Of a stretch of DNA of 64,000 nucleotides, positions 18,664 to 55,286 are shown one piece after another (position 1 is the stretch's first letter; the number at the start of each line of letters is the position of its first letter). The notes under the pieces were generated by a model that saw only the letters and a list, made by a program, of their open reading frames with translations, was not told the DNA's origin and ran no database searches. Made by a program: the position numbers and the translations under genes. The stretch is taken from the NCBI GenBank assembly GCA_029098305.1, contig JAQXOB010000047.1, forward strand, positions 5,101 through 69,100, given 5' to 3'. This DNA comes from Clostridia bacterium. Its GTDB lineage: Bacteria > Bacillota > Clostridia > Oscillospirales > Acutalibacteraceae.

Positions 18664-18697
18664 TTTTTCCAAAGTTACTTGAAAGGAAGTGGAAACA

Positions 18698-21454: not shown

Positions 21455-21627
21455 TTATTTATAGGGAGCCGGACTCCTGAGATTGTGTGCAGACCTCCCG
21501 ATTTTTCGGAAGAAGGGAGCCTGAGGTCAAGGGGAGGCACCCACCTGTCGATTAGTAGGCAGGTTGTAAAAAATGCGCTACGGTCGGGCGGAATAAACAT
21601 ACTTTCCAAAACAAAAAGCCTTACACA
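21455..21627 (+). other. GC-rich structured non-coding element (candidate leader RNA, sRNA or REP-like repeat)
   Basis: Visibly GC-rich island in AT-rich intergenic DNA. Contains GGGAGCC twice and complementary blocks gacctccc / ggggaggc and acctg...caggt. The only ORF across it is an implausible N-terminal extension of the next gene. Confidence 0.5.
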
Positions 21628-21655
21628 GCGCTCGGAAATATCCGGGCGTTTTTCT
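21628..21655 (+). terminator. Rho-independent terminator or attenuator ~20 nt before the next start codon
   Basis: gcgctcgga / tccgggcg(t) 9-bp stem (G-U pairs), 4-nt loop aata, followed by TTTTTCT. Confidence 0.7.
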
Positions 21656-21673
21656 ATAAATTATATAAATGGG

Positions 21674-34999: not shown

Positions 35000-37900
35000 T
35001 CATGGATAGTTTCCACCGTTTATTGGGCCATTAGTTGCAGGGAAGGTCTTGTCGTCAATGACTTCGTCATTTAAGATAGCATTTATATATCTCTCCAAAT
35101 ACTCACTCTGAGCTACTGCGCTGGAGTTGTGGGTGAGAATATAGTCTGCCACGTTCTTGAGGTTAGCTTTGTAGCCATATCCACAAGCCTTAGAACCTGT
35201 TTCTGTTACGTAATGATAACGCTCTATGCCACTAGCATCAGTGTAATTAACGTATGTTCTAGCAGCAAAGTCTGTGGAATAATCCGGAACCGCGATGTTA
35301 TTGATAACGGTTGAGAATACGTTGTAATTTGTACCTGCATAAAGCTTGTTTACAGCAGGTGACTTAATAACTTCATATTTGCCGTTAGCATCCGGAACGC
35401 ATCTTTCTGCCACAAGACCGCCATTCTCTGCTACATCTGCGTATGCAAGCAAATGACCATAGGTTACTGTTGTTGACGATACAGATTGAAGCTCGTTTAC
35501 AAGTGACTTGTTTATTCTTGATACAAATCTTAAGCCTGTACCACCATATGTAGGTGAATATACAGCTCTGATCTGAACGCCCATAAGTTCAAGTCCGCTA
35601 AGCTCTTTGTTTACATCTCCAAAACGAACAATGGTATCGTTTGGCTCCTGTGTTACTGTGTTTATCTTAGCCCAACCGGCATAAAGAACTGTATCTGAGC
35701 CTAAAACATCATTGATCTTGTAAGCATTATTCTTATCATTGCTCTGAGCTGCGCTTGCTGACTTGTACCAACCTGTAAATACATATCCATCTTTTTGTGG
35801 ATAGATTGGTTTATCGCCACTGTCTTTAAACACTGATGAATTAAGTGTAATGTTATCAGCAGAGTTGCACTCTATATCACTCAAGACAACAGTATTATGT
35901 GTCAATGAATCAACATAAGAAATGCTAGACCCATCAGGATTTTTAAATGAAACAGTGAATACATCTTCTTCCCATACTGCATAAAGAGTTACTGTTCCGT
36001 TGTTAGTAGCTGTGAGATTTGATACAGACTGTTTATCTGTGTAAACAACTTTTGTTGCTGTGCTTGCTGTATCCCATCCTGCGAATGTATAACCAGTCTT
36101 TGTAAATGCGTTGGCTGGGAGTACCTTATATACACCATATGTAAAGCTTTCGTCGCTCATAGTGCCTGAGCCACCATTTGCATCAAACTTTACTGTATAA
36201 GTGTTAGCTGTCCAGATTGCATACAAGGTATGTGCATTTTCATTTGTAACGCTTGTTGAAGATGTTACTGCTGTGCCATCTGTCTTTGCTGTTGACCAGT
36301 TCTTAAATGTATATCCTGTGCGTGTTGGTGTTGGAAGTGTGCCGTAGGTTGAACCATAAGTAACAGCCTTGCTCTGTGCCTCACATGAGCCACCGTTTGC
36401 ATCAAATGAAACTATGATATAACCTTTGGCCATCCACACAGCATAGAGAGTTACTGTTCCATTGTTAGTAGCTGTGAGATTTGATACAGACTGTTTATCT
36501 GTGTAAACAACTTTTGTCGCTGTGCTTGCTGTATCCCATCCTGCGAATGTATATCCAGTCTTTGTAAATGCGTTGGCTGGGAGTACCTTATATACACCAT
36601 ATGTAAAGCTTTCATCGCTCATAGTGCCTGAGCCACCATTTGCATCAAACTTTACTGTGTAGGTATTTGGTGTCCACACTGCATATAGATTTACAGTTGT
36701 ACCATTTGTGTCTGTAAGGTTAGATACAGACTGCTTATCTGTGTAAACAACATTTGTTGCTGTGCTTGCTGTATCCCAGCCTGCGAATGTATAACCAGTC
36801 TTAGTAAATGCATTTTGTGTGAGTGCTTTAGACTCGCCATATGTAAAGCTCTGATTATTCATGGTGCCTGAGCCACCATTTTCGTTAAACTTCACTGTAT
36901 AAGTATGTGCGGTCCAAATTGCATACAATGTATGTGCATTTGCATTTGTTACGATTGTAGTTGATGTCACTGTTGTGCCATTTGTTTTTGCTGTTGACCA
37001 GTTATTAAATGTATATCCTGTGCGTGTTGGTGTAGGAAGTATGCCATAGGTTGAACCATAAGTAACAGCCTTACTCTGGGCCTCACATGAGCCACCATTT
37101 GCATCAAATGTTACAATTATATTGTTTTTAGCTGTCCACACTGCATATAGGTTTACAGTTGCTCCGTTTGTATTTGTAAGATTAGATACAGACTGCTTAT
37201 CTGTGTAGACAACCTTTGTTGCTGTGCTTGCTGTATCCCATCCCGCAAAATTATAACCAGTCTTAGTAAATGCATTTTGTGTAAGTGCTTTAGACTCGCC
37301 ATATGTAAAGCTCTGATTATTCATGGTGCCTGAGCCACCATTTGCATCAAACTTTACTGTATAAGTGATTGGTGTCCAATGGGCATATACGGTAAGATTA
37401 TTAGCATATATCCATTTCTTGTCTGCATTGAAGTAACCTGTGTTTGGTACGCAATAATAATCGGCATCATAAACCTTTGTTCCGCCTGATGTTGCTGTAT
37501 ACCAACCTGCAAAGGTGTAACCATTTCTTGATGGCTTTAAATCACCATTATTAAGAGAATAATAGTTTGTTGTGTTGTATGTCATGGTTACTGATCTTAT
37601 TGTACTATAATTACCACCATTCGGATCAAGTGTAAGGGTGTAAGTTTTTGGTGTCCAATGGGCATATACCTTCAAATCATTATCATATATCCATTTATTC
37701 TCTGAATTGAAGTAAGCTGTGTTTGGCACGCAAATATAATCTTCGCCATAAACTTTTGTTCCTTGTGATGCTACTGCCGTTGTATACCAGCCTGCAAAAG
37801 TGTAACCATTGCGTGATGGCTTATAATCAGCACCTTGAAGAGAATGATACCCTGATGAATTGTATGTCATGGTTACTGATGTTGTTTTACTATAGATACC

Positions 37901-40900
37901 GCCATTTGGATCAAGTGTGAGTGTGTAAGTTTTTGCTGTCCAAATTGCATACAATGTATGTGCACTTGCATTTGCCACAATTGTTGAAGATGTTACTGCT
38001 GTGCCGTTTGTTTTTGCTGTTGACCAGTTCTTGAATGTATAACCTGTACGTGTTGGTGTAGGAAGTGTGCCATAGGTTGAGCCATAAGTTACAGACTTAC
38101 TTGTAGTTTCACATGAGCCACCATTTGCATCAAATGTTACAGTTATGTCGCTTTTTGCTTCCCACTTAGCTTGCAAGGTTGCATCCTCAAATACATCTTC
38201 ACAAAGGTCAGCTTCAAGGCTTCCGTCGGATTTTATAAATCTCTCTGTAGAATGTCCACCATGAACATCTGTGGTGTTATGATAGCCCTTGAAGGTATAA
38301 CCATCCCTTGTAGGAACTGTTATACTTGTAATCTCCTTGGTGCAATCTTTGTCACTATAATACTTGTTTGTACCATAGCTATACCATATATCGCTGGTGC
38401 CATTTGAACCGCTATTTTGATCAAGTGTGATATGAATTGTCTTTGGTGTCCAATGGGCATATGCTGTAGCATCGTTACCACAGCCTACGTCGTTAGCAAG
38501 ACCTCGGAATCCACCACCAAAGTTGGTTCCGCCTGACCAGGTAAGTTTTTTATCACTATCTGTATTATCTGCCTCTTTGAAATATCCCTCAAATGTATAG
38601 CCTTTCTTGGTTGGCGGTGTTATTTGAAGCTCTTTACCTTCATAACGTGGATATGGTGTAGTACATTCTTCGTCCTGATACCATTCTGCATCAATTTCAT
38701 ATAGAGCGTTCCACTTGATGTAAACAACATCGTCACCATCTGTACCGCCTTGCTTATCAAGAGTAATCTTAGAAACTCCTTTACCCCATCGTGCGTACAA
38801 TACATTGGCAGGTGCACTGGAATATACTGTGCCTGATGTCACCTTTTCTCCGCCATCCGGTCTGGTATACCAGCCTTTAAAAATGTATCCTTCACGAACA
38901 GGATCTTCCGGCAAGCTATAATTAGATGAGTAGCCTGCCTTTCTTGGAGCAGGTGTGTATACTTCGGAAGAAGAGTCTGTTCTCTCTATTTTAACCTTAA
39001 ACTGAAGGTTATTATAAACATCTGTGCCGTTCTTCCATGACCAAATTGTAAGGTGATCCACAGCTTTTGCCTGATCAGCAGAGAGCTTAAATGTTTTAGA
39101 AACACTGGTTCCATAATAATCCATTGATGTGCGGTTGTTAGTAGCATTTGAAATCATTTCCTGATTAGAATTATGCAACTCGAAAGCTATGCAGCCGTTA
39201 CCGCTTGTCTTAGAACCGCCTACAGTGGTTACAGTTAGAGTATAAGTACCTTTGCCAAGGTTCAATGGAATCTTCTTTATATCGCCACCTGTGCCTGTTA
39301 CTGTACCATTGAGTGTGTGCACCTCAGTTGTAGCATTGTAAGAATATTGTACTCCTGCTACAGTCGCAGAGGTTGTATCAGGCACATACTCGTTTATACC
39401 AATATCATCATAGTTTACATCGAAGAGAACATTATAAGTTCTGCTTGCATTAAAGTTTTTAACGGTTTGTGCTATTGGTTTCTCCTTAAAGCCATGGGCT
39501 TCATCCATATACATACCATAATTGCCATCATAAGAAGGGTCGTACAGCTTATAGATAAAGAGCACCTGCAAATATGGCAATTCCTTTGCATCTTCAAGCT
39601 CCCATGCCATCTGCTGTGCAGCGCTGTTTAATTGTGCCTGTGTTGGGTCGGTATTTACTGCTGAATCTTCAAATCCTGTTTCAGTCATAAACAAAGGCTT
39701 GCCATCGTCGCCGTGTCTTTGTGCCACTGCATAGATAGCGTTATTCATGTTTATCCAACCTCTATCTGATGAAGAGGAGATTTTGTGAGCATGACTTGCA
39801 GAGTATGGGTGCCAGTTGAGAACCTGGAAATAATCATCTGAATTCATGCTCTTTGTTCTTGCACCAAATGGATGTGCTCCTGATTCGATAGCGCTATACA
39901 CTGCTTCAAGCATATAATCTGATCTAGGAATATATACTGACGAGTTATCGAATTTTAATCCGGGAACACCATTTGCATCTTGACCACTCTTGGCATCATA
40001 AACAGAACACATAGATGGCAAAAGTATCTTTGCTTCTGAATTCACCTTGCGGGCTGCATCTGTAAAGTAGTAGCAAAGGTCAGCAAAAATATGGCCTTTT
40101 TCCTCAGTTGTATAGGTCTTTTCTTTATTGTATACTTCTTCTGACCAGCCTGGTTTAACGCAGTTTGAGTCTGCATCAAATTCATTAAATGGTTCTACAT
40201 AGTCGATCTCCGGGAATTCCTCCAGAATCATTCCTATTCCGGCTGAGTTAATCTCAAGCCAGAGCTTGTAGTTTTCAGGGTCTGCCTTATAATCCGGAAC
40301 TTCCTTCCAGTGTGTATATACATAACCATTAGGGTGGAGCAGTGCATCAAGTGTCAAGAGATATTCTTTTACGTTTGTATCGTCTTTAAAATAATTATTC
40401 AATACTCCCCTGATTATATCTTTTCCGCCCTCTTTCCATACAACAGTATTGTCAGGACGAACAGTGAGTACTGTACCAAGACCAAAGCCATTTCTGAACA
40501 CTTCTATATTAAGCTCTTTAGTATGCTTGATATGATTTGTCGAGTTCAAATGAGGCCATTTGTCAGTTCCGGCTCCAGATAAATCAGTAGCCTGATCAGA
40601 AATACCAATTGTGTAGTTTCCGTCTATTCTATCATATCCCTCTTCCACGTTTTCAATGCTTATAGTGTTACCGCTAATAGAAAGCACCTTATACATTGTG
40701 TGGCCTATATAGAAGGTTTCGCCTACTTTGACATAGGTATTAGTAGCTCTGTCAGTAACATTTCTAAATGTAAAAGCTGTAAAGTTGTGCGACCCACTAA
40801 CTGTGAGTGTGCAAGGATCGCCCACTGTAAATGTAGCACCGGTAAATGTTTGTGTAGATTTGGTGTAGGTGATATCTGCTACCTGTGCATATTTTGAATG

Positions 40901-42400
40901 ACTTGATGTCATACAGCTGTATGCAGATGTGGCACACACTTCGGAATAAATCACACGTGTTTCATTATTTTCATCTTTATAAGCTATATACCCCACCGCC
41001 ATATATGTTGTGGCTAAATCGGAATCGTCTACATTAATGGTTGCAGTGTATTTTGAATCACGAGAGGTACGCACAATCTTTTGAGCATTTGGGTCTAGTG
41101 AATCTAATCTTAAGTTAGATTCATCACTGTAAAGATCCTTGCTTGGCAGGATGAGTGTACCCATCTCTGTTATGCTGTCGCCAAGAGTAGTGTATATGTA
41201 TGGGTCTACAGTAAAACTAAAGTCTATGGCAACTTGTGAGCCGGTGTGAAGCTTCATTTCATTTTTGTAGATATATTCATCATGTGCTTCATACAAAGGT
41301 GCATTATGCAAGTTTTTACCTACAAGACCATTTGCATGATATACCATATATGCCGGTGAAACCTTAACGTCATTATATCCTATATAGCCACCGCTTGTCT
41401 GGTAAAAGTCGGTATAGAAAGGCTCAAACATATATTCGTCGTTAATCTTTACATAAACACAGTCTTTGCCGGCGTTGGGTCCTGCAACTACACGTATTCT
41501 AGCCATCTCTACCTTAGAATATTTATCTGAAGCCAATCTGGAGCCTGTCTTGTGCATTTCACTCCTACGGGAAGACTCTACTTCCCAGCCAAAGTGAGAG
41601 CTATCATCTTTAAACCATAGTGCAAAGCCTGAGCTCCAGTAAGAATCAAAGGCTATTCTGAATCCGGATTGATCACCATCATTTAGTCTGGTGTAGAAAG
41701 TGTATATTACAGAGTAGTATTTACTTGTGCCATCATATGAGTATGAATTTTCGCTCACATAGTTAAGGTCATGATGTGAGATGCGATCTATATCTTTTGT
41801 AAATCCATTATCGGAATATAAACCATTTTCAAAGCTACCTGTGTTAGAATAAAGACGGTTTGATGGGAAGGTAACACTTGCATCAGCAGCATTTGCCATA
41901 TATCCGTTTTCTACATCAAACAAATCTGTATAGAACGAATCTTTCAGCACATCGTTCATCTTGAGATATACATAATACTTGCCGGCATTTGGACCTGATT
42001 CTACATAGAGACGTCCCATTTCTACTAGAGTAGTAGTCGTAACTGCTTCAAGCTTGTTGCCATTGTTATCTTCATTTTGATAGCAGAAATAGGTGGCATC
42101 TTTTTGGAACCATACACCAAAAGGATGTCTCCATGTGTGGTCAAACGTCAACTGATATGACATATCGGCTGTCGGCACCACAAGATACTTGAATTTTACA
42201 GAATATGTAGGCGAAGTGCACTCATATGTTGTATTTTGCCTGTTTCCACTATTAGGTGCAAATTTTAGATCAGTTATAGTGATCTCATCCACCTTATCTG
42301 TGAAGACATCTTCTGCTGCGCTTGCGCTTATCGTGGTTGGAACAATCACAGATGTGACTATCATAACCATTGATAATAGCAACGAAAGCATTTTTTTCAT
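35000..42400 (-). CDS. Giant secreted surface protein 1 (2466 aa): two paralogous N-terminal domains, clan GH-A-like module, ~13 Listeria-Bacteroides-type repeats, shared C-terminal module
   Basis: AGGGGG SD upstream. Signal peptide ...[15 protein letters not shown] and FMTETGFED are candidate acid/base and nucleophile Glu motifs, with NWHPY between them. 13 repeats carry G[YF].F.G[WY]. The C-terminal segment ...LMGVQIRAV...GLRFVSRI...[12 protein letters not shown] is related to giants 2 and 3. Confidence 0.9.
35985..38160 (-). repeat. Near-identical in-frame tandem repeat array inside giant gene 1
   Basis: A ~210-nt block at 35990-36197 recurs almost base-for-base at 36452-36660 (462-nt offset), with variants at ~36700-36900 and ~37150-37360. 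A second block type lies at 36218-36420, 36920-37120 and 37945-38148. Confidence 0.9.
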
Positions 42401-42540
42401 AGTAATACCCCCTGTGTAATTACAGCTGTTTCAAACATAAACCTGAAACACCTTATAATACAATTTATTATACAATATATTATATTATATACTGTATGGT
42501 ATAGTCAAGCTTAAAACCGTAATTGAACCAATATTTAAAC

Positions 42541-42578
42541 AAAAAACAGCCCCAAGGCTTTTTATCACCTTGGGGCTG
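42541..42578 (-). terminator. Rho-independent terminator (11-bp GC-rich stem plus T-run on minus strand)
   Basis: cagccccaagg (42547-42557) pairs with ccttggggctg (42568-42578). The minus-strand read-out ends in TTTTTTGTTT. Identical to the copy at 49631-49668. Confidence 0.85.
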
Positions 42579-42607
42579 TTCATTATGAAAGATATTTATG
42601 AAAAATC

Positions 42608-42769
42608 TTATCTCAACGCACTAAATGCTCTGAAAGCGTTATCAACGTCTACTACAGTATCTGTATCACTCTCTGTTATTTCAGAATCTGTATCACCGGA
42701 TGCTGCCATAACGTCTTGTGCGAGAAGCATTTCATCTATCAATTCCGGAGTATTATATAATTTTTTCAT
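42608..42769 (-). CDS. Unannotated 53-aa acidic protein encoded immediately downstream of giant gene 2
   Basis: Order on the minus strand: stop of giant 2 (42791-42793), 4 nt, AAGGAGGT (42779-42786), 9 nt, ATG (42767-42769). Encodes MKKLYNTPELIDEMLLAQDVMAASGDTDSEITESDTDTVVDVDNAFRAFSALR, TAA at 42608-42610. A frame-preserving paralog lies at 49698-49859. Confidence 0.75.
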   Translation of the reverse strand: MKKLYNTPELIDEMLLAQDVMAASGDTDSEITESDTDTVVDVDNAFRAFSALR

Positions 42770-42790
42770 TGTAAAAATACCTCCTTAAAA

Positions 42791-45700
42791 TCAAGCTATT
42801 TTAGCAAGTTTATCGTAAGCATTGCTAACTGCTGACCAAGCATTATCGAAGCTTGTGCGGCAACCGCCTGCGAACTTACTGTCTGAATATGTGTGGTATC
42901 CACGACGTCCAAATCCGTTAGCGTCTGTGTAATCAACATATGCTCTTGCCTCTACAAGGTCACCCTTGTATGCTGCATCTGCGCCATCATACTTAATAAC
43001 GAGTGTAGACAAGCGATAATCGCCAAACATTCTGTGGTTCTGATCGCCTTCTTTTGTACAATCAATATCTACAGCGCCGGTTGTCTTCTTGTTAAGCTTT
43101 GTAAGATTTGCTATATCGGTCTTAGCATATGCTGTGTAACCATAAGATACGCTCTTGCCCTTCAAGCTCTGGAGCTCTTCGAGCATACCATTGCGATATA
43201 CTGTTACGAAACGAAGTGCGTCTTGATCTGTGTTGCTCATATCTGGCTGATACTTATCTGCAACTTCTTTGCTTCTGATCTGAACACCCTCGAGGCTAAA
43301 GCCCTTGAGTGATGATCCACCATAGCTGTTCTTATCTTTACCGTCCTTAGTAACTGTACCTACTGGTACCCACGCAGCATAGAGATTGAGGTTGCCATCT
43401 GCATCGTCATAATCGGCGATTGTGATGGTCTCTGGGAATGCTGTACCGTTTGTTGTGCCTACAGTAAGGTCTGTAGTGTACCATCCGGCAAACAGATATC
43501 CGCTTCTAACCGGTAGGCCATCCTCAACATTTGCGCCTGCCTCTGCAGATGTGATCGGTGCTTCTGTAAGAGTATGGGTTGTAGCACCATCATATATTAT
43601 TGACTCTTGCAATAATGTTGAACCGTCGTAATAACGAATGTAAGAAGCTTCTTCCTGGTTAGCACTAAGAATTGGTGTTTCTACTTCGTTTACTACTTCA
43701 TTGCCTCTAGCCATATCCATTACTCTAGCAATGCTGTTACCCTCTAATGATGTAGGATATGTTTCACTTGCTCCACGTGGTCCGCCTGATTCAGGGTTAG
43801 CCACAAGCTGAAGTGGAATTGTAATGTAATAAGGAGTAGATGCCTTTAGCTTTGATACATCCCATGTAATTACGTTATCTTTTATAGTAACTACAGAATC
43901 ACCATATTCACCACCACTAGCTGTAGTAGCTGATGTGGTAAAACGAGCTGTATCAATGCTTATTGAAATTTCGTTAGGATGTGCTGCTGAATAGAATGCA
44001 CTTGTGAATGCATCTAGGAGTTTGCTTTCATCGTTAGCACTATATACCATATCTGGGGTTGTGCTGATAGCATCAAGTTGTTCTCTACCATCACTACCTA
44101 GATTTCCCAAATAAACACTTGAGATAGGACAACCGAGTGCCTTTATAGCAGTAGCCTCTGCTCCACCATATATACCATTACTGTCCTTATTACCAAGGTT
44201 TGGATATCCATCTGAGAAGAAAAGAAGCATTGCATCTCTTGATTTATCTTTTCTGTCTCTAATAAAGTTGCGTGCCTGTTCTAAGCCTGCTGAGTAATCT
44301 GTGTTTCCTTCTGCTATTTGAGCGTTAAGATATATCAAAATCTTTTGTAAATCATCTGTAAAATCAAGGCTTGATTCTAAATCATCACCAAATGTTGTAA
44401 ATGCCACACGGCTACCCTTGATCTGTGTTAGAACAGAGGCTGACATTTTTTCGACAATATCAATCATTGTAGTAAATTTACTACCTGTCATACTACCACT
44501 TACATCAAGTACAAATACTACATCTTTTGGCTCGTATAGCGCATAGGAATAATCTACACGAATCTCAGCTGTAGTTTTGGATTCATCCATCCACCTAGCT
44601 GATTGCTTAATCCATGTATTGGAGTATTCTCCGTTTAACTTACCAATTTTAGTATCTTCGTAACCTTCTACGACATTGTTGTCACCTTCGTAGTAGAATG
44701 ATGAATCTTTAAAGACTTCGTCAAAAGCTACATCATCTGCCCAAATCGCATAAAGCTTATCTGTTACTTCAAAATTAAGAATATCAGAGTTAAAAATTCC
44801 ATATAGAGTATTATTTGTTGACCAACCAATAAATTCGTCATTATCCCTAGTCGGTGTTGGTAATGATGCAATAGGAGTACCTACGGTTTTTGTAATAGTT
44901 GTAGATGTACCCGCCGGTAATGTTCCACCATTCACATCAAGAGTTATATCATATGTAGCTCCAAATTCCATAAAACGTGATAAGGTGTTTGTTTCGCTAC
45001 AATAATCATATGCTTTTGATGGTTTTGGTGCTACTACAATAGTATAATCTGGAACAGCTGTTGCTCCCATACTTGTATTATCACCATAAATATAAACTGA
45101 TTTTAAGTGACTGCAATCTTTAAATGCGGAATCTGATATAGTTGTTACACTTTCTGGAATATCAATTGATGTTAATGTATTGCAGTATCCAAATGCTCCA
45201 CTTCCAATGGTTGTTACACTGTCTGGAATATCAACTGATGATAACATAGTACATCTTTCAAATGCTCTGCTTTCAATGGTTGTTACAGTGTCTGGAATAT
45301 CAATTGATGTTAATGAGCAAGCTTCTAAAAATGCAGAAGCAGGTATAGTTGTTACACCGTCTTCGATATCAATCGATGATAATGCGGTACAGTATGCAAA
45401 TGCAGCAACGCCCAGGCTTGTGACACTGCTCGGAATATTAACTGATGTCAATGCAGTACAGAATGCAAATGCATTATTTCCAATGCTTGTCACACTAGAT
45501 GGAATTTCTACTGATGTTAACGAATGACAACCGTAAAATGCTGTATTTCCTATGCTTTTTACACCATCTGGAATAACAAGTGGTGTTAATGATCTACATG
45601 AATGAAATGCACCATTTCCAATAGTTGTTACACTGTCTGGAATATTAATTGTTTTTAATAATTCACATGAACGAAATGCATTATCGCTTATAATTGTTAC

Positions 45701-48700
45701 ACCGTCTTCGATATCAACCGATGATAATGCAGCACAGTATATAAATGCTCTGCTTCCAATGGTTGTTACACTACCTGGAATATCAACTGATGCTAGTGAT
45801 GAGCAATCTTCAAATGCACTACTTCCTATAGATGTAACGCTATCCGGTATCTTTACTTTTTCTAGGTTTATACAGCGCTTAAATGCATCGTTAGAAATAT
45901 TTGTAACGCCATTATCTATTACCACAGATTTGATATCATTAATATGATAACTAAGCCATGGTTGTATTGAAATGCTACTCATATCTCCTTTGCCATAGAT
46001 ATAAAGTGTACCATCATCGGTAATATACCAATTGAGATTGTTACCATTTGCTCCTGTTTCGCCGGAATCTACTACTGTCTTTTCCCATACTGCATATATA
46101 ACTGTGTCATATTTGGTATCAAGGTCATAAACACTTGTAAACTCTGCATCACTCTGTGAATATCCATACTTACTTGTAGACCAACCCAAGAAATTTTGTT
46201 CACTGAGTGTAGGTGTTAGGCTTGAGAGTGAAATATCTTCGCCATATGTTTTGGTCATAGACTTCACTGTCTCATTATCTGCAAACTTACCACCGTTAGC
46301 ATCAAAAGATACTGTGTGATTTACAGGTGTTAGTGGAACAAAGGTGATTCCTTTTGATTTGCAATATTCCTCTGCAAAAGTATCATAATAACCATAAACT
46401 CTAAGTTCTTTAGGGCATTTTATGAAAGCATCATCTCCGATAGATGTAACATTCTCACGCATAATTACTTTTTTCAAGCTAGCACAATTTTTAAATGCTT
46501 GATCGCCTATAGATGTAACGCCCTCTGGTATCTCTATTGAGGTTAAGCCTTTACAATTGATAAATTGTTGAGTTTTTATAGCTTTCATAGAGCTTGGCAA
46601 TCTAACAGATATTAATCCTGTTGCACCTTCGAATAGGTAGTTACCCATAGATGTAACAGTATCCGGTATTTCTAGTGATATCTCTCCGCTGCAATAAGAA
46701 AATGCACCATAATCTATAGATGTAACACTATCGGGTATTTCTATTGATAGTTTTCCGCTGAAATAAGCAAATGCCTGACTACCTATAGATGTAACACTAT
46801 CTGGAATGCTAACTGAAGTTAAATTAGTACACTTGTAAAATGCTTTGTTGCCTATGCTGGTTATTCCATTTTCTATTTCTATTGATGTGATAGAACTTTT
46901 GTAAGAATACCATGGTGCATATTCACTAAAATCGGTCATATCGCCTGAGCCTGTGATAACAAGCTTTCCTTCTTCGGTAATATACCAAGTGATAGCACCA
47001 TTTTCCAAGGTACCGGAAACTATAGCACCAAATTGATTCTTAAATGTAATGTTATTAGCATTACAATAGCTCTCTGCCACTGAATTTGTTTCTCCAGATA
47101 CTACAAGATCAGCTGAACAATTCTTGAAAGCATCGGTTCCAATGCTAGTAACACTAGCTGGGATTGTTGCTGATGTCAGATTGCTACAGCCATAGAAAGC
47201 ACTTCTTCCAATGCTAGTTACAGTAGCTGGGATTGTTACTGAAGCCAAACTAGAGCAACTTTGGAAGCTGTAATCAGGAATTTTTGTAACAGCTGGGCCA
47301 AATGTTAAAGACTTTAAGGCACTAATGCCATTGAAGTAATTAGTATTAGTCATCTCACAGTTAATAGTAAGTTCTTCCAATCCATAACAAGAAGAAAATG
47401 CTCCACTGTTAAGGTTAGTAACACTAGCCGGAATTGTTAATGAAGGCAAATTAGGACAAGTTGAAAATGCTCCATAACCAATGCTAGTTACACCCTCTGG
47501 GATTGTTAACGAAGTCAGATTAATACAAGATCCAAAAGTTCCATCATTAATACTAGTCACGCCGGATGGAATTGCTACTGATTCTAAACTACGACAGCCA
47601 TTAAAAGCATACTGTCCAATGCTAGTAAGCTTAGATGGGAGTGTTGCTGTTGATAGATTTGAACAACCATAAAAAACATAACTTCCAATGCTAGTCAGAG
47701 TAGATGGGAATGTTACTAAAGTCAAGTTAGAGCAATTTTGGAAGCAATAATCAGAGATTGTTGTAACACCCTCGCCAAATGTAACAGACTTCAAGCTATT
47801 ACGATTACAGAAATAAGCAGTACCAGGGAGATTACAGTTTATATTAAGATTTTCCAGTCCATTGCAATTATTAAATGAATTAAAACTAATAGAAGTAGCA
47901 GTTTTTGGGATAGTTAGTGTTTTAATATTTGAACAACCATCAAATGCATAATCTGCAACATCTGTGATACCTTCCAAATATACAACTGATGTGATATCAT
48001 ACATATAATCGCGCCAGTTACCCAAGTCGCCACTGGAAGAACCTTTACCACTTAAAACAAATGTTCCATCCTCGTATAATGTCCATCTAAGGTTGCCGTT
48101 ATAATCACCTGAAGCTTTAACCTCACTGGTAGAACTCTCAAATGTAATACCCTTGCTGTTACAATAACTCTCTGCATATGAACCTGGTTCTCCAGATATC
48201 ACGAGATCGCTTGAGCAATATGAAAAAGCATTGCTTGCAATGCTAGTTACACTAGATGGAATCTCAACTGATGTGAGATTGCTACAACCATAGAAAGCAC
48301 CGTCCCCAATAGTGGTTACACCATCAGAAATCACTACTGATGTAAGTTTATCACTATAATAGAAAGCATCCTCTCCAATAGATTTTACACTACTTGGAAT
48401 TACTACTGATGTAACATTAGTATACTCAAATGCATAACCACGAATTGTTTCAACAGTATCAGGAATAGTTCCTGTTGACTGCACTGTGGCTTTTATCAGC
48501 TCTTTTCCATCTGCTGTAAGTAACAAGTTATCTTCTAATACAAAGGAAGTGTTTTGTGGGGATATTGTAATGGATGTAAGTTTTGCACCACCGGCAAGTT
48601 TATCCCCTATGCTCTGTAAACCACTACCAATAGTTAATGAAGTTAAAGAGTTACAACCGGAGAAGTTGTTAGTACCAATAGATGTAACACTATCCGGGAT

Positions 48701-49333
48701 TACAAAAGACTCTAAGCTACTACAACCACCAAAGTTATTATCACCAATAGTTTTTATATTATTTCCAAGTGTTACAGTTTTCAAACTGGTGCATCCACCA
48801 AACATAGCATTTGGCAATGCAGTAAGACCGTCACCTATTACAAAGGAAACCAATTTTTGACAGCCACCAAACAAACTGTCTGATAATGTTGTAACACCGT
48901 TACCCATGTCAACAGACACTAAACCAGTACATCCACCAAATGCACCACTACCAACCGTAGTAACAGTATCTGCAATAGTTAATGTTTCGATATTTGAACA
49001 TCCACCAAATGCCTGTGCTGCAATATCTGTGATACCGTCCTCAAATACAAGTGATGTGATATTGCCCATGTATTTACGCCAGGTTGCTTTATCGCCACTG
49101 GTGGTACCTGATGTTGCATTGGGTCCTTTTTTTACAATGAAACTTCCATCGTCATAATATTCCCATATGACACCAGTATCGTTATAGTCGCCACTCTCAA
49201 CTAAAGTTGCACCTCTGGCTTCCAAGTCTTTGACACCATTGCCAAAAACGTCTTTGATACCCTCAGCATTAACTGCTATTGCACTAGATAATGCCAGCAT
49301 TGCTACTAAGAGTATGCTGATAATTTTTTTCAT
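42791..49333 (-). CDS. Giant secreted surface protein 2 (2180 aa): four BspA-type leucine-rich-repeat cassettes, Listeria-Bacteroides-type repeats, vWA domain, shared C-terminal module
   Basis: Signal peptide ...AIAVNA. Many ~23-aa units of the type F.GC..L.S[VI].IP.SVT.IG..AF. vWA MIDAS motif VVFVLDVSGSMTG (about 44.5 kb). C-terminal ~190 aa are nearly identical to giant 3. Confidence 0.9.
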   Translation of the reverse strand: MKKIISILLVAMLALSSAIAVNAEGIKDVFGNGVKDLEARGATLVESGDYNDTGVIWEYYDDGSFIVKKGPNATSGTTSGDKATWRKYMGNITSLVFEDGITDIAAQAFGGCSNIETLTIADTVTTVGSGAFGGCTGLVSVDMGNGVTTLSDSLFGGCQKLVSFVIGDGLTALPNAMFGGCTSLKTVTLGNNIKTIGDNNFGGCSSLESFVIPDSVTSIGTNNFSGCNSLTSLTIGSGLQSIGDKLAGGAKLTSITISPQNTSFVLEDNLLLTADGKELIKATVQSTGTIPDTVETIRGYAFEYTNVTSVVIPSSVKSIGEDAFYYSDKLTSVVISDGVTTIGDGAFYGCSNLTSVEIPSSVTSIASNAFSYCSSDLVISGEPGSYAESYCNSKGITFESSTSEVKASGDYNGNLRWTLYEDGTFVLSGKGSSSGDLGNWRDYMYDITSVVYLEGITDVADYAFDGCSNIKTLTIPKTATSISFNSFNNCNGLENLNINCNLPGTAYFCNRNSLKSVTFGEGVTTISDYCFQNCSNLTLVTFPSTLTSIGSYVFYGCSNLSTATLPSKLTSIGQYAFNGCRSLESVAIPSGVTSINDGTFGSCINLTSLTIPEGVTSIGYGAFSTCPNLPSLTIPASVTNLNSGAFSSCYGLEELTINCEMTNTNYFNGISALKSLTFGPAVTKIPDYSFQSCSSLASVTIPATVTSIGRSAFYGCSNLTSATIPASVTSIGTDAFKNCSADLVVSGETNSVAESYCNANNITFKNQFGAIVSGTLENGAITWYITEEGKLVITGSGDMTDFSEYAPWYSYKSSITSIEIENGITSIGNKAFYKCTNLTSVSIPDSVTSIGSQAFAYFSGKLSIEIPDSVTSIDYGAFSYCSGEISLEIPDTVTSMGNYLFEGATGLISVRLPSSMKAIKTQQFINCKGLTSIEIPEGVTSIGDQAFKNCASLKKVIMRENVTSIGDDAFIKCPKELRVYGYYDTFAEEYCKSKGITFVPLTPVNHTVSFDANGGKFADNETVKSMTKTYGEDISLSSLTPTLSEQNFLGWSTSKYGYSQSDAEFTSVYDLDTKYDTVIYAVWEKTVVDSGETGANGNNLNWYITDDGTLYIYGKGDMSSISIQPWLSYHINDIKSVVIDNGVTNISNDAFKRCINLEKVKIPDSVTSIGSSAFEDCSSLASVDIPGSVTTIGSRAFIYCAALSSVDIEDGVTIISDNAFRSCELLKTINIPDSVTTIGNGAFHSCRSLTPLVIPDGVKSIGNTAFYGCHSLTSVEIPSSVTSIGNNAFAFCTALTSVNIPSSVTSLGVAAFAYCTALSSIDIEDGVTTIPASAFLEACSLTSIDIPDTVTTIESRAFERCTMLSSVDIPDSVTTIGSGAFGYCNTLTSIDIPESVTTISDSAFKDCSHLKSVYIYGDNTSMGATAVPDYTIVVAPKPSKAYDYCSETNTLSRFMEFGATYDITLDVNGGTLPAGTSTTITKTVGTPIASLPTPTRDNDEFIGWSTNNTLYGIFNSDILNFEVTDKLYAIWADDVAFDEVFKDSSFYYEGDNNVVEGYEDTKIGKLNGEYSNTWIKQSARWMDESKTTAEIRVDYSYALYEPKDVVFVLDVSGSMTGSKFTTMIDIVEKMSASVLTQIKGSRVAFTTFGDDLESSLDFTDDLQKILIYLNAQIAEGNTDYSAGLEQARNFIRDRKDKSRDAMLLFFSDGYPNLGNKDSNGIYGGAEATAIKALGCPISSVYLGNLGSDGREQLDAISTTPDMVYSANDESKLLDAFTSAFYSAAHPNEISISIDTARFTTSATTASGGEYGDSVVTIKDNVITWDVSKLKASTPYYITIPLQLVANPESGGPRGASETYPTSLEGNSIARVMDMARGNEVVNEVETPILSANQEEASYIRYYDGSTLLQESIIYDGATTHTLTEAPITSAEAGANVEDGLPVRSGYLFAGWYTTDLTVGTTNGTAFPETITIADYDDADGNLNLYAAWVPVGTVTKDGKDKNSYGGSSLKGFSLEGVQIRSKEVADKYQPDMSNTDQDALRFVTVYRNGMLEELQSLKGKSVSYGYTAYAKTDIANLTKLNKKTTGAVDIDCTKEGDQNHRMFGDYRLSTLVIKYDGADAAYKGDLVEARAYVDYTDANGFGRRGYHTYSDSKFAGGCRTSFDNAWSAVSNAYDKLAKIA

Positions 49334-49513: not shown

Positions 49514-49630
49514 TATTATCATATTTTTATTTGTTTTTTCTATACATTTTACAAAAAAACGTGCTTTTAATAGCTTTATTTTTGTGCGGTTTTGCTAATT
49601 ATTAACCAAAACGCTTTCATGCAAAACATA

Positions 49631-49668
49631 AAAAAACAGCCCCAAGGCTTTTTATCACCTTGGGGCTG
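49631..49668 (-). terminator. Rho-independent terminator (copy 2, identical stem)
   Basis: Same cagccccaagg...ccttggggctg hairpin and T-run as at 42541-42578. Confidence 0.85.
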
Positions 49669-49697
49669 TTCATTATGAAAGATACTTATGAAAAATC

Positions 49698-49859
49698 TTA
49701 TCTCAACGCACTAAATGCTCTGAAAGCGTTATCAACGTCTACTACAGTATCTGTATCACTATCTGTTGTATCAGAACTTACATCGCCAGATGCTGCCATA
49801 ACGTCTTGTGCGAGAAGCATTTCATCTATCAATTCGGGAGTATTATATAATTTTTTCAT
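49698..49859 (-). CDS. Unannotated 53-aa acidic protein encoded immediately downstream of giant gene 3 (paralog of 42608-42769)
   Basis: Same layout: stop of giant 3 (49881-49883), 4 nt, AAGGAGGT (49869-49876), 9 nt, ATG (49857-49859). Encodes MKKLYNTPELIDEMLLAQDVMAASGDVSSDTTDSDTDTVVDVDNAFRAFSALR. Confidence 0.75.
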   Translation of the reverse strand: MKKLYNTPELIDEMLLAQDVMAASGDVSSDTTDSDTDTVVDVDNAFRAFSALR

Positions 49860-49880
49860 TGTAAAAATACCTCCTTAAAA

Positions 49881-52800
49881 TCAAGCTATTTTAGCAAGTG
49901 CGTCGTAAGCATTGCTAACTGCTTTCATAGTAGCATTGAAGCTTGTGCGGCAGCCGCCTGCGAACTTGCTGTCTGAATATGTGTGGTATCCACGACGTCC
50001 AAATCCGTTAGCGTCTGTGTAATCAACATATGCTCTTGCCTCTACAAGTGAATCCATGTATGCAGAATCTGCGCCATCATACTTGATAACGAGTGTAGAT
50101 AAGCGATAATCGCCAAACATTCTGTGGTTATGATCGCCTTCCTTTGTACAATCTACATCTTTAGCGCCACTTGTCTTATCATCAAGGCTTGTGAGAGATG
50201 ATATATTATCCTGAGCATATGCTCTATAACCATAAGATACGCTCTCGCCGTGCAAGCCCTGAAGCTCTTCGAGCATACCGTTGCGATATACTGTTACGAA
50301 ACGAAGTGCATCTTTATCAGTATTGCGGTCGCCATTCTGATACTTATCTGCTACTTCTTTGCTTCTGATCTGAACACCCTCGAGGCTAAAGCCCTTAAGT
50401 GTTGTATCTCCATAGTTGTTCTTATCTTTACCGTCCTTAGTAACTGTGCCTGTTCTTACAAAGCCTGAATAGAGGAATACAACATTTTCATATGTTGTAC
50501 CATCGATATCTGTGCTAGCTAATACATTACATGTTGAGAGATCAATCTCTTTACCAAATGCCTGAGTTGGATCTACATGGTGATTTGAGTAGCTATACTG
50601 TGATGCTTCCTTAGTCTTGAACCATCCTGCAAACAATAAATTATTATCATTATGGGATGGAACACCGTCTTTAACAAGGCCGGCATTTTGACCGTAAACA
50701 TGTGTGATTGGTGCAGATGTGAGTGTAAGAGGACTCTCTACATTCTCATCGATCTGATAGAACAACTCACCAGAATTGTTCTGGTTATTTGCATAAATTA
50801 CTGTGTAGGTTAGATCTTCTTCTTCGATTGCTTTTGAAGCATCAACAAAGATACCTGTTGCTACAACATCCTTTGCTGGCATTGTAAACTTACCATCTTT
50901 TACATATACATCATCGCTGATGTAACCGTCAAAGATATGTGTTGAAGGCACACCTGTGATTTCAGGAAGTGTAACTTCTTCGCCTGCTGCGTATACAAAT
51001 GTCTTTGTAGTTAAGTTCATGCTTGCAGGAGCGTTTCTGTAGTTTACAGTTACTGTGTAATAAACCGGAGTATCGCCTGATGTTTGGCCATCTGTTGCGA
51101 GTTTTACCCAGTTACCACGAACTACTGTATCCTTTGTGAGTGCTGGAGTTGTTGCGCCAGCCTCATATACTGTGCCGTCAATTGTCCAGCCCTGGAAGTA
51201 GTAACCTTCCACTGCTTCTGGATATGTTGCGATAGTTGTTGTGTTGTTGTATGCAACTGTAGTTGCTGTTGGCTCTGTTCCTACCTTTGCTGAAGGAACA
51301 TCTCCTGTAAACTCATAAGATACAACTACTTCTGTTGGAGTTGGTACTTCGTTTGCAGAATATGTACCAATTGCACGGAGGTTCTGATTTGGCATTGCGA
51401 ATGTTGAACCAGCCTCTGCACCACGTGCACCTCTTGGTGCTTCAATGCTGTCAAATACTTGACCATCTTCGCCATAGAAAGTCCAACCTTCGAAACGATA
51501 ACCGTCTACTGGTGTATGGTTTTCTACTGTTACAGTAGCATCAACATCATAAGAAGCTGCTGCTGGTGCAACTACACCAGATGGTACTGTACCAACATAC
51601 TGATAAGAAACGTTCTTAGGAAGGTTATCCTGATCTGCGTTCTTATCTACGTAATGATATGTTACATTACTTACCTTAACAACGTTCTGCTCCTGAATTG
51701 TTGCAGAGTTGTAGAAATCTCTGTGAAGAAGGCCATCAGGTAGAGTATCTACTGTACACTGGAATGTGATTATCATATAACCATGAGAATCGAGACCTAC
51801 AATCTTAACAACGATTGCGCCCTCAGAATCAATGCTATAATCCTTGCCGTCTTGCTTAACTATTTCGCCATGTGCCTTTGTGGTATTTTCAGGGTTTTCA
51901 GGATCATAATTTCCGAAAACTACTGCTTCTTGTGATACCTGAATAGAGTCTTCAATAAGTGTGAGGCCTTCTGGCAACTCATCTCTAATTGTAACTACAC
52001 CATGTTTAAAGTCGCTCTCTAATGAAGGAGCTCTTGGGCCCTTAATTTTAATTGTGTAGTCAATTGTAGCGCCCTCGTTTACTTGACCATACTCGATGGT
52101 CTCGCCTTCTCCACGGTCCACATCAAGAGTAGTAACTACTGCTGCATCTTTGCTATCATTAACTACTACATCAAGGTCAGCTGGTGTGTTAACAAGAGCT
52201 GTGCCGTGTGATGGTGTGTATGCAGGTGCCTCTGAAGCTAAACCCTTATAATAACTACTAAAGTTAGTTAAAAGATAATCAGGTCCATAAATGTTCTTTA
52301 AAGCAGTACATCCAGAGAAATAATTAGAGAAGCCTCCAGTGAAAACTGAAGAGGAATTTGGTGCTATAACTGTAGTAAGTGATGTACATTTATAGAACGG
52401 ACTTGCACCAATTTTATCTGATACCATAGACAGATCTATATATTCAAGTCCGGATTCAGAGAATCCATATTGTTCTATTTTGGTTGTAACTGGTGGCAAC
52501 TCAATATATTTTAATGCCTTACATTTTCCAAACATCGAATATGTTACGTAGAATGGATTTGAGTCTGTCTTACCCATTTCTATATTAACTTCTGACAAAT
52601 TTGTACAACCTACAAATAATTCACTTGCTACAGTAAGGGTTGTAACTGTTTCAGGAATAGTAATACTTGTAAGACTTGTACAATTTGCAAAAACCCTATT
52701 CCAAGGTGTTGTTACACTGGCTGGAATTGTAAATGATTCCAATGAGCTACAATTTTCAAACAATGATTGACCAAGTGTTGAAAATGTACTATTACTTCCA

Positions 52801-55136: not shown

Positions 55137-55286
55137 ATACATCTTCCTTTCTAAAATTAATTAGATAAATTTTTAAGGATATTTGCTAATGATTATATTT
55201 AAAGCTGCCCTCCTTTACATTGGTCAACTGCGCCTAAAGTGAGAAAATACGCCATTTATGCTATTAAGCACAGTATTACTATGGTC

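What the first reader, a model, noticed from the sequence alone, without database searches (positions are those of the whole stretch)
42608..42769. Hidden 53-codon acidic ORF with a strong SD, translationally adjacent to giant vWA/LRR surface protein 2
This ORF is absent from the ORF track because it is under 60 aa. The track instead lists a spurious 72-aa antisense ORF. On the minus strand the giant gene's stop codon is followed by 4 nt, AAGGAGGT, 9 nt, then ATG. The ORF ends about 30 nt before a strong GC-rich terminator, so it is the last cistron of the giant-gene transcript. The product is MKKLYNTPELIDEMLLAQDVMAASGDTDSEITESDTDTVVDVDNAFRAFSALR. It is strongly acidic (12 D/E versus 4 K/R by my count) and has no Cys, signal peptide or TM segment. 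An identically organised paralog follows giant gene 3. From memory, the N-terminal MKKxYxxPxLxxxxL...DVxxxSG pattern resembles leader regions of clostridial radical-SAM/RRE-dependent RiPP precursors. However, the C-terminal half lacks the usual Cys-rich core and no maturase is adjacent. Alternative roles are a dedicated chaperone or secretion partner, a regulator, or an anchoring partner for the shared C-terminal module of the giants. I know of no described family of this kind.
Basis: partly seen in the sequence, partly recalled or inferred. Interest (0 to 1): 0.75.

Follow-up and report, generated by a model that had tools for sequence, protein, structure and literature searches.

The report
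Conserved mini-gene trailing giant adhesin genes
The 53-codon reading frame is a real, evolutionarily conserved small protein gene that always sits directly behind a particular tail domain of giant surface-protein genes in a few uncultured gut-type Clostridia; it belongs to no described family, and what it does is inferred, not shown.

Summary
The 53-aa ORF lies at 42608-42769(-), 21 nt after the stop of giant gene 42791-49333. It has an AAGGAGGT Shine-Dalgarno (SD) site 9 nt upstream and a strong terminator about 27 nt downstream. A paralog lies at 49698-49859(-).

It is a real gene. I found 13 instances (11 independent loci plus the 2 window copies) in 5 sequence lineages with 38-98% identity. 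Each lies 16-21 nt after the same C-terminal module subtype (…EARAYVDYxDANGFxRRGY…GGCR[TA]S[FY]) of a giant, mostly vWA/LRR_5/Flg_new, protein, and in four unrelated genomic neighbourhoods. Substitutions are mostly synonymous (7 syn : 1 nonsyn; 8:5; ω about 0.03-0.28).

The product is modelled as helix (8-23), variable S/T/D/E-rich linker (24-38), helix (39-52). The helices are under purifying selection. The linker takes only nonsynonymous changes between close paralogs.

Module, ORF and terminator form a roughly 830-nt 3' cassette shared by giants that otherwise differ.

No RiPP maturase occurs in the 64-kb window or in any other context. The lasso-like N-terminal hit is weak and not reproduced by the diverged homologs.

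Most likely role, by inference: a 1:1 co-expressed binding partner or chaperone of the giants' C-terminal module. The family is very narrow: 2 of 185,579 species genomes.

The parts
42608..42769 (-). Small ORF copy A (53 codons plus TAA stop), a conserved protein-coding gene
   Evidence: Homologs in 5 lineages with ω 0.03-0.28. A local HMM finds exactly two copies in the window.
42779..42786 (-). Shine-Dalgarno site AAGGAGGT, 9 nt before the ATG and 4 nt after the giant's stop codon
   Evidence: An AAGGAGG or GGGAGG site 4-10 nt before the start is kept in all lineages although the spacer sequence differs.
42701..42748 (-). Codons 8-23: predicted helix 1 (PELIDEMLLAQDVMAA), running into the most conserved motif, DV[MI][AT][AE]S[GS][DE]
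   Evidence: AF2 helix 8-23. Invariant columns Y5 P8 L10 E13 L15 D19 V20 S24. Only synonymous changes between the two window copies.
42656..42694 (-). Codons 26-38: variable S/T/D/E-rich linker. Its length varies between lineages, and it takes only nonsynonymous changes among close paralogs.
   Evidence: 7 nonsyn / 0 syn in the linker against 0 nonsyn / 3 syn in the flanks, Fisher p = 0.008. No helix or strand assigned by DSSP at 24-38; pLDDT dips to about 56 over residues 31-40.
42614..42655 (-). Codons 39-52: predicted helix 2 with the conserved motif [VI][VL/E][DE]x[DN]N[AS/I][FIY]R.FS.LR
42535..42581 (-). Intrinsic terminator (15-bp stem, 8-nt loop, T-run) ending the giant + small-ORF transcript
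   Evidence: Hairpin-plus-T-run sequences also follow the ORF in L003 and L009 and a GC-rich hairpin follows it in L007/L008, as read by eye; these were not scored with the terminator scan.
42794..43372 (-). C-terminal module of giant 2 (about 190 aa, β-rich plus a terminal helix, two conserved Cys). It is the conserved upstream partner of the small ORF and the first part of the shared 3' cassette.
   Evidence: No Pfam or PDB family.
42791..49333 (-). Giant gene 2 (2180 aa; signal peptide, LRR_5 in 13 matched stretches, Flg_new, VWA)
49698..49859 (-). Small ORF copy B (53 codons plus stop), paralog with a different linker (DVSSDTTD against DTDSEITE)
49869..49876 (-). Shine-Dalgarno site of copy B
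49634..49671 (-). Terminator of copy B
49881..55142 (-). Giant gene 3 (1753 aa; VWA, LRR_5, Flg_new_2) ending in the same module
35000..42400 (-). Giant gene 1 (2466 aa, Flg_new only). Its module is a distant relative (about 32-35% identity) with a longer tail and no small ORF after it. It serves as a natural negative control.
42570..42788 (+). 72-aa antisense ORF with a TTG start; judged spurious
   Evidence: The antisense frame is interrupted in L003 and L007. The substitution pattern fits the minus-strand frame.

Best explanation
Shown: the ORF is a genuine, translated-type small protein gene of 47-58 aa. It is the second and last cistron of a bicistronic unit made of a giant vWA/LRR_5 surface-protein gene, a 16-21 nt gap holding a strong SD, the small ORF and a terminator. 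Together with the roughly 190-aa C-terminal module of the giant, it forms a roughly 830-nt 3' cassette that is shared and homogenised between otherwise different giants.

Modelled at modest confidence: the product has two short helices joined by a sequence-unconstrained S/T/D/E-rich linker, with no export signal.

Inferred: it is a dedicated binding partner of the C-terminal module. It would be made in coupled, near-stoichiometric amounts on the same mRNA. Its two conserved helices would clamp the module, or the module's terminal amphipathic helix, in the cytoplasm. That would make it a cis-encoded chaperone or holdase-type accessory factor that keeps the last-made domain of a >1,000-aa Sec substrate export-competent, or otherwise controls it. 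It is not a free-standing bioactive peptide.
For: Real gene:
- Five lineages keep frame, SD and position.
- Nei-Gojobori counts: winA against L001, 7 syn: 1 nonsyn (ω 0.03). L007 against L008, 8:5 (ω 0.15). For the distant pairs where dS could still be estimated ω is 0.19-0.28.

Strict linkage:
- All 13 instances follow the same module subtype.
- The giant is the only shared neighbour across four contexts: YitT/Obg, jag/YfhO, GGGtGRT/spoIIIA and dockerin/DUF3737.
- The reverse test holds. All three module-first hits of the subtype carry the ORF. The distant modules lack it: giant 1 with its near-identical fragment P0010, and P0009.
- There are no orphan copies in the 2 species genomes that have it.

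Cassette: homology between giants 2 and 3 starts abruptly at about 43372 and runs through the terminator.

Stoichiometric coupling: the gap is 16-21 nt with an SD, and there is no room for a terminator or promoter between the genes.

Architecture: AF2 gives helices 8-23 and 39-52 at pLDDT 67. The helices are constrained and the linker is free. There is no signal peptide or TM segment.

No maturase, transporter or receptor gene co-occurs.
Against: - No physical interaction is shown.
- The module model is poor (pLDDT 48), so no binding surface can be named.
- A cytoplasmic peptide and a Sec-exported giant meet only before export. No precedent is known to me for a roughly 50-aa dedicated chaperone of a Sec adhesin.
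- The pattern of conserved ends around a hypervariable middle, plus a very conserved DVMAASGD junction, would also fit a processed peptide (leader, cleavage site, variable core).
- With only five lineages, covariation between peptide and module cannot be tested.
Confidence: 0.4

Rival explanations
1. RiPP precursor, lasso-like or another RRE-dependent class, or graspetide-like. Residues 1-24 would be a leader carrying the YxxPxL recognition motif. The variable S/T/D/E-rich middle would be the core. The maturases would be encoded elsewhere in the genome.
For: - YxxPxL is present and invariant (Y5, P8, L10).
- There is a weak NCBIfam lasso_cyano hit on residues 1-11 (E = 0.1).
- The leader-like part is conserved and the middle is hypervariable.
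- If G25 is taken as core residue 1, an acid falls at position 9 in 4 of 5 lineages (sequences), and bulky F/R residues follow in the tail.
- The middle is rich in Thr/Ser and Asp/Glu, as graspetide cores are.
Against: - The hit is far below the cut-off (12.6 against 33 bits). The L003, L007 and L009 homologs do not reproduce it.
- With the canonical register (Y at -17, PMC10368454), residue -2 is Val, not Thr. Core residue 1 is Ala or Thr. The ring acid at positions 7-9 is absent in L003 and L007.
- With G25 as +1, the motif sits at -20..-15 and residue -2 is Ala.
- None of the following occurs in the 64-kb window or within 6-10 kb in three other contexts: lasso cyclase, B protease, PqqD/RRE, SPASM rSAM, ATP-grasp, YcaO, Lan enzyme, C39 transporter.
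- The adjacent rSAM is tRNA enzyme MnmL.
- A RiPP reading does not explain the obligatory position behind the giants' module.
Confidence: 0.1
2. Exported signalling or surface-acting peptide of pheromone or AgrD/ComC type, with a tripartite precursor. It would be cleaved at the conserved …AASG|D junction to release a strain-variable middle segment.
For: - Tripartite layout with a variable middle and conserved flanks.
- Paralogs in one genome differ almost only in the middle.
- The junction motif DVMAASGD is the most conserved stretch.
Against: - No Sec signal and no double-glycine leader match: position -7 is Asp and position -2 is Ser.
- No AgrB, C39-ABC exporter, receptor or histidine kinase next to it in any context. 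The ABC transporter at 31088-32770 has no C39 domain and is absent from the other contexts.
- No NCBIfam or Pfam hit, at E up to 10, to any peptide-pheromone family.
- No Cys for a thiolactone.
Confidence: 0.1
3. Immunity or antidote-type protein of a polymorphic-toxin-like arrangement. The giant's C-terminal module would be harmful, and the small downstream product would neutralise it in the producer.
For: The gene order (giant secreted protein, C-terminal domain, tightly coupled small acidic ORF) is that of CdiA-CT/CdiI and of Rhs/LXG toxin-immunity pairs (established knowledge). CT and small ORF move together as a cassette.
Against: - The polarity of variation is reversed. Here the C-terminal module plus ORF is the conserved part, shared by paralogs whose N-terminal regions differ.
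- The module is a β-rich domain with distant relatives that lack any partner (giant 1, P0009). It shows no toxin family signal.
- Acidity is not conserved.
Confidence: 0.05
4. The peptide as such has no function. The ORF would be kept because translating it matters, for example by protecting the 3' end of the very long mRNA or preventing premature Rho or RNase action before the terminator.
For: It always sits between the giant's stop and the terminator. The linker evolves as if unconstrained.
Against: The amino-acid sequence of both helices is under strong purifying selection across lineages whose synonymous sites are saturated. That is not expected if only the act of translation mattered.
Confidence: 0.05

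Closest known systems
Dedicated small secretion chaperones encoded next to their substrate (class I type III secretion chaperones; flagellar FliS/FliT/FlgN, which bind substrate C-termini)
   Same: Small, mostly acidic, helical and cytoplasmic, with no export signal. Encoded directly beside a single secreted substrate and presumably acting 1:1.
   Different: Those proteins are 100-170 aa, dimeric and serve non-Sec pathways. This one is 47-58 aa, sits behind a Sec-signal-bearing giant in a Gram-positive organism, and has no sequence or profile similarity to them. Binding is not shown.
Lasso peptide precursors (YxxPxL leader recognised by the RRE/B1 protein)
   Same: Length of about 50 aa. N-terminal MKKxYxxPxL. 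A Gly followed by an acid 8 residues later. Aromatic and Arg residues in the tail.
   Different: Motif register and Thr(-2) are not met. The ring acid is not conserved in the canonical register. No B or C genes in any context. It is always coupled to a giant adhesin gene, which is not the case for lasso clusters.
AgrD/ComC-type tripartite or leader-plus-variable-core peptide pheromone precursors
   Same: Conserved N-terminal helix, strain-variable middle and conserved C-terminal tail. Size of about 46-58 aa.
   Different: No Cys, no double-glycine site, no amphipathic membrane-binding leader, and no AgrB, ComAB or sensor genes nearby.
CdiA-CT/CdiI and other polymorphic toxin-immunity cassettes
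   Same: A 3' cassette (C-terminal domain plus tightly coupled small ORF) that is exchanged between large secreted proteins.
   Different: Here the cassette is the conserved part rather than the variable part. There is no toxin signature, and the small protein is far shorter than typical immunity proteins.

Membership tests
Lasso peptide precursor | YxxPxL motif in the leader, spanning positions -17 to -12 relative to the core (PMC10368454) | tested here: inconclusive
   The motif is present and invariant (Y5, P8, L10). The register that puts Y at -17 makes the core start at Ala22/Thr. The register with Gly as +1 puts the motif at -20..-15 (sequences; criteria).
Lasso peptide precursor | Thr (rarely Ile, Val or Ala) at leader position -2 | tested here: not met
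   Residue -2 is Val20 in the canonical register or Ala23 with Gly25 as +1. It is never Thr in these registers.
Lasso peptide precursor | Core residue 1 is Gly/Ala/Ser/Cys, and Asp/Glu at core position 7-9 forms the macrolactam | tested here: inconclusive
   In the canonical register the acid at 7-9 is absent in L003 and L007/L008. With G25 as +1, an acid falls at position 9 in 4 of 5 lineages, but the region is about 35% D/E, so this is weak.
Lasso peptide precursor | Adjacent lasso cyclase (Asn-synthetase-like C) and leader peptidase B/B1-B2 (RRE plus transglutaminase-like) | tested here: not met
   None in the Pfam-annotated 64-kb window, nor in L001, L002, L005 or L007.
Lasso peptide precursor | Significant match to a curated precursor model | tested here: not met
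   lasso_cyano gives 12.6 bits against a cut-off of 33, on residues 1-11 only. The diverged homologs match nothing.
Radical-SAM/RRE-dependent RiPP precursor (sactipeptide, ranthipeptide and similar) | Cys-rich or otherwise modifiable core, plus a neighbouring SPASM/rSAM maturase with an RRE | tested here: not met
   No Cys in any homolog. The only nearby rSAM is TIGR01212 MnmL/YtqA, a tRNA enzyme, at 305 bits.
Double-glycine leader peptide with a C39 peptidase ABC exporter | GG/GA/GS cleavage site with hydrophobic residues at -4, -7, -12 and -15, and a C39-ABC transporter nearby | tested here: not met
   The junction is A-S-G|D, with Ser at -2 and Asp at -7. The ABC transporter at 31088-32770 lacks a C39 domain and is missing from the other contexts.
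AgrD autoinducing peptide precursor | Cys (or Ser) forming a thiolactone or lactone 5 residues before the cleavage site, and an adjacent agrB | tested here: not met
   No Cys. No AgrB in any context. No NCBIfam hit of any kind, at E up to 10, for the diverged homologs.
Dockerin / EF-hand Ca-binding motif (helix-loop-helix) | 12-residue DxDxDGxIxxxE/D loop conserved between the helices | tested here: not met
   The window copy can be forced onto the pattern, but winB, L003 and L007 break it (alignment). No Pfam Dockerin or EF-hand hit at E up to 10.
Polymorphic toxin immunity protein | Variable C-terminal toxin domain on a conserved delivery protein, with a co-varying immunity gene | tested here: not met
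   The C-terminal module plus ORF is the conserved part, and the N-terminal regions differ. No toxin family matches the module.
Dedicated secretion chaperone or cis-encoded binding partner (functional class, not a sequence family) | Direct binding to the adjacent substrate, here the C-terminal module | not testable with these tools
Only genetic linkage is shown.
Dedicated secretion chaperone or cis-encoded binding partner (functional class, not a sequence family) | Obligate co-occurrence and co-transcription with a single substrate gene | tested here: met
   13 of 13 instances lie 16-21 nt behind the module, with an SD and no intervening terminator. No orphan copies were found.

The most novel reading that the evidence does not exclude
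The peptide would be a new kind of trans-encoded C-terminal subunit or processed peptide. Its hypervariable S/T/D/E middle would be a specificity determinant, for example a leaderless-exported or post-translationally modified (ester- or lactam-linked, glycosylated or phosphorylated) tag that decorates or gates the giant adhesin. It would be matured by enzymes encoded elsewhere. That would define a new adhesin-coupled RiPP or pheromone-like class.
Probability: 0.12. Interest if true: 0.75.

Novelty: new variant of a known kind. Interest (0 to 1): 0.45.

Why it matters
Giant BspA-type LRR/vWA surface proteins are common in gut and rumen Clostridia, yet how they are exported, folded and held at the surface is largely unknown. 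These ones have no LPXTG, SLH or dockerin anchor. A conserved, strictly coupled 50-aa accessory gene that travels with their C-terminal module points to that module as a functional unit needing a partner. It also gives a small, tractable handle (deletion, pull-down, co-fold) on the biology of these giants. Finally, it is a clean case of a real gene that an ORF list cut at 60 aa leaves out, with an antisense decoy listed in its place. The family is very narrow (2 of 185,579 species genomes plus a few metagenome contigs), which limits its general importance.

Tried and rejected
1. Co-folding module and peptide. 

2. Fold of the module. AF2 gave pLDDT 48 on an 8-sequence alignment. Foldseek against PDB gave only generic β-sandwich matches: TM ≤ 0.33, none at E ≤ 0.001. 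No fold assignment is made.

3. Gene-fission idea, that the peptide equals the extra C-terminal tail of giant 1. Smith-Waterman against shuffles gave p = 0.13-0.68, not significant.

4. Read-through or fusion with the giant. The ORF is in frame in the window (21-nt gap, two stops). The gap is 16, 17 or 20 nt elsewhere, so the frame relation is not conserved.

5. EF-hand or dockerin reading of helix, acidic loop, helix. The loop pattern is not conserved and there is no Pfam hit.

6. SpyTag-like isopeptide strand (VVDVDNAF against IVMVDAYK). This is a resemblance recalled from memory only. The peptide has no export signal and AF2 models the segment as a helix. Dropped.

7. Wider homolog hunts:
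- Exhaustive phmmer over 1.84 billion representatives gave only P0001 and P0006.
- The GTDB species scan gave 2 species.
- The JGI metagenome scan gave 1 locus.
- IMG/VR gave none.
- The PDB profile search gave none.
- PHROGs gave none.

8. Literature searches on BspA with small ORFs, and on the accession numbers, found nothing relevant.

Full report

Yes. On the minus strand the giant gene 42791-49333 ends in TGA. It is followed by TTTT, AAGGAGGT, ATTTTTACA and then ATG at 42769. The ORF runs for 53 codons to TAA at 42608-42610.

A 15-bp, 8-GC stem-loop with a T-run lies at 42581-42544, about 27 nt after the stop. Its folding energy is -31.9 kcal/mol, z = -6.1 against shuffles.

The product has 12 D/E against 4 K/R, pI 4.05 and no Cys. 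No hydrophobic stretch could serve as a signal peptide or TM segment.

A second copy at 49698-49859(-) follows giant 49881-55142 with identical spacing, SD and terminator.

Both giants carry VWA and LRR_5 domains; giant 2 has Flg_new and giant 3 Flg_new_2.

The third giant (35000-42400, Flg_new only) has no such ORF behind it.

**2. Is it a gene?**

Within the window the two copies sit in a near-identical duplicated block, so they say little on their own. I therefore looked outside the window.

- The indexed protein search found three near-identical called proteins.
- Reading every one of 1.84 billion representatives with phmmer added one diverged homolog, P0006 (47 aa, 63% identity), and nothing else credible.
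- Scans of 185,579 species genomes and of JGI metagenomes added a Clostridiales MAG, RUI300 (L007, 55%), and L008.
- Searching with the giants' C-terminal module, rather than with the peptide, retrieved three short contigs. Each had the small ORF downstream. One was a fifth, more diverged lineage (L009, 58 aa, 38% identity).

In total there are 13 instances in 5 lineages. The reading frame is open in all of them. An AAGGAGG or GGGAGG site precedes the start by 4-10 nt even though the spacer sequence differs. The gap to the giant's stop is 16-21 nt.

Codon-level counts show a coding pattern:

| Pair | Synonymous | Nonsynonymous | ω |
|---|---|---|---|
| window copy A vs L001 | 7 | 1 | 0.03 |
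| L007 vs L008 | 8 | 5 | 0.15 |
| distant pairs where dS could be estimated | near saturation (dS 1.2-2.4) | dN 0.35-0.45 | 0.19-0.28 |

The antisense 72-aa ORF starts with TTG and is interrupted in L003 and L007.

None of them applies.

**3. Anatomy of the product**

Alignment shows three parts:

- A conserved N-terminal 25 residues, MKK.Y..P.L..E.L…DV[MI][AT][AE]S[GS][DE].
- A middle of variable length and sequence, always rich in S/T/D/E.
- A conserved C-terminal motif, [VI]x[DE]x[DN]N.[FIY]R.FS.LR. It is recognisable but diverged in L009.

AF2 on the small alignment models helix 8-23, an unstructured 24-38 and helix 39-52, at mean pLDDT 67.

Among close relatives the partition is sharp. 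Between the two window copies the linker has 7 nonsynonymous and 0 synonymous changes. The helices have 0 nonsynonymous and 3 synonymous changes (Fisher p = 0.008). The linker's divergence is about that of silent sites. That fits an unconstrained sequence with a kept composition; positive selection cannot be claimed.

Strong acidity is not a family trait: L007 and L008 have net charge -1.

**4. Context**

The ORF was found in four unrelated neighbourhoods:

- YitT/Obg … MnmL in the window and in L002.
- jag … YfhO/GT2 in L001.
- GGGtGRT/spoIIIA in L005.
- Dockerin proteins and DUF3737 in L007.

The only shared neighbour is the upstream giant. Every upstream protein ends in the same module subtype, …DYRLST.V..Y…EARAY[VI][DK]Y[TVI]DAN[GA]F.R.G[YF].T[YN]…GGCR[TA]S[FY]…, with two conserved Cys.

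More distant relatives of the module lack the ORF. These are giant 1 with its near-identical fragment P0010, and P0009 at 31% identity.

Between giants 2 and 3, nucleotide identity jumps from about 30-48% to 72-100% at about 43372 and stays high through the terminator. So module, small ORF and terminator form a roughly 830-nt 3' cassette shared by giants whose remaining sequence differs. The MAG143 genome has three such giants.

The module matches no Pfam, NCBIfam or PDB family. Its AF2 model is poor (pLDDT 48), β-rich with a terminal helix. Foldseek gives only generic β-sandwich noise.

**5. The RiPP idea**

The only database signal is NCBIfam lasso_cyano: E = 0.1, 12.6 bits against a cut-off of 33, residues 1-11. 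The three diverged homologs match nothing.

The published lasso criteria are YxxPxL at -17..-12, Thr(-2), Gly/Ala/Ser/Cys at +1, and Asp/Glu at 7-9 (PMC10368454). Measured against them:

- The canonical register gives Val at -2, Ala or Thr at +1, and no conserved ring acid.
- The register with Gly25 as +1 gives an acid at position 9 in most lineages. It shifts the motif by three residues and puts Ala at -2.

The whole window was annotated with Pfam. It contains no lasso cyclase, B protease, RRE/PqqD, SPASM radical-SAM enzyme, ATP-grasp, YcaO, Lan enzyme or C39 exporter. The same holds for the other contexts.

The radical SAM gene beside giant 1 is the tRNA enzyme MnmL/YtqA, TIGR01212, at 305 bits.

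A precursor whose maturases lie elsewhere cannot be excluded without the full genomes. Even so, that reading would not explain the obligatory position behind the module. I put it at about 0.1.

**6. Most likely mechanism**

Shown:
- It is a bicistronic unit with tight SD-mediated coupling.
- Module and ORF are inherited together as a cassette.
- Two segments are under selection, and no export signal is present.

Modelled (AF2, mean pLDDT 67): the two conserved segments are helices joined by an unstructured linker.

Inferred:
- The peptide is a dedicated partner of the giants' C-terminal module, produced on the same mRNA in matching amounts.
- It binds through its two helices.
- It most plausibly acts in the cytoplasm as a small holdase or chaperone for the last-made domain of a >1,000-aa Sec substrate.

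This works like the small acidic substrate-adjacent secretion chaperones. It is not a member of any of their families.

Confidence that it is a real, selected gene is about 0.95. Confidence in the partner mechanism is about 0.4.

The rivals are a processed or pheromone-type peptide, an immunity-type protein, and a frame kept only for the sake of translation. Each is listed with its refuting experiment.

**7. Novelty and score**

No family in Pfam, NCBIfam, PHROGs or PDB, and no paper found, covers it. It is an undescribed small-protein family with a clear and unusual genetic linkage.

Its function is unproven and its distribution is extremely narrow: two species-level genomes and a handful of metagenome contigs.

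I rate it as a new variant of a known kind (an operon-encoded accessory partner of a secreted giant), with interest 0.45.

Noticed in passing
window 42540-43372 and 49630-50462 (-): Giants 2 and 3 share a roughly 830-nt 3' cassette made of C-terminal module, small ORF and terminator. Identity rises abruptly from about 30-48% to 72-100%, and the last roughly 370 nt are nearly identical. This suggests recent gene conversion or cassette exchange between otherwise different giant genes.
   Followed up: partly
window 42767-42793 (-): In the window and in MAG143 the small ORF is in the same frame as the giant, separated by two stops (TGA … TAA). The gap is 16, 17 or 20 nt in the other lineages, so the frame relation is not conserved and read-through fusion is unlikely.
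   Followed up: yes
window 42794-43372 (-); alignment A6: The C-terminal module has two Cys conserved across all relatives (…D[IV]DCTK… and …GGCR…; shifted in giant 1). They could form a disulfide stapling the terminal tail to the β-rich body, which would be unusual for a strict anaerobe's surface protein.
   Followed up: no
window 447-1667, 8038-10617, 21485-23908 (+); L007 6296-8353, 9843-11423: Several proteins carry type I dockerin domains, so the host is a cellulosome-type fibre degrader. The giants themselves have no dockerin, LPXTG or SLH anchor detected, so how they are held at the surface is open.
   Followed up: no
window 17863-20969 (+): Two tandem sortase genes are followed by a LytR-CpsA-Psr family gene that overlaps the second sortase (19458-19510).
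   Followed up: no
window 5684-7255 (+): A 523-aa protein with multiple ankyrin repeats (Ank_2, E = 5e-46), uncommon in free-living Firmicutes.
   Followed up: no
L009 1-45: The metagenome contig ERZ28019117:k141_1236209 begins with an Illumina adapter sequence (GTGACTGGAGTTCAGACGTGTGCTCTTCCGATCT). Its giant-gene reading frame is broken at about 546, so there are assembly artefacts upstream of the module.
   Followed up: no
L007 5636-5641; L008 1135-1140: These homologs start with ATGATG. The SD lies only 4 nt from the first ATG and 7 nt from the second, so the real start is probably the second ATG (MKTKY…, 52 aa).
   Followed up: partly
window 55776-56843 (-): The YitT-family ORF is 355 aa in the mechanical ORF list but 317 aa as called in the syntenic MAG143 locus. 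The first roughly 38 codons here are probably not translated.
   Followed up: no
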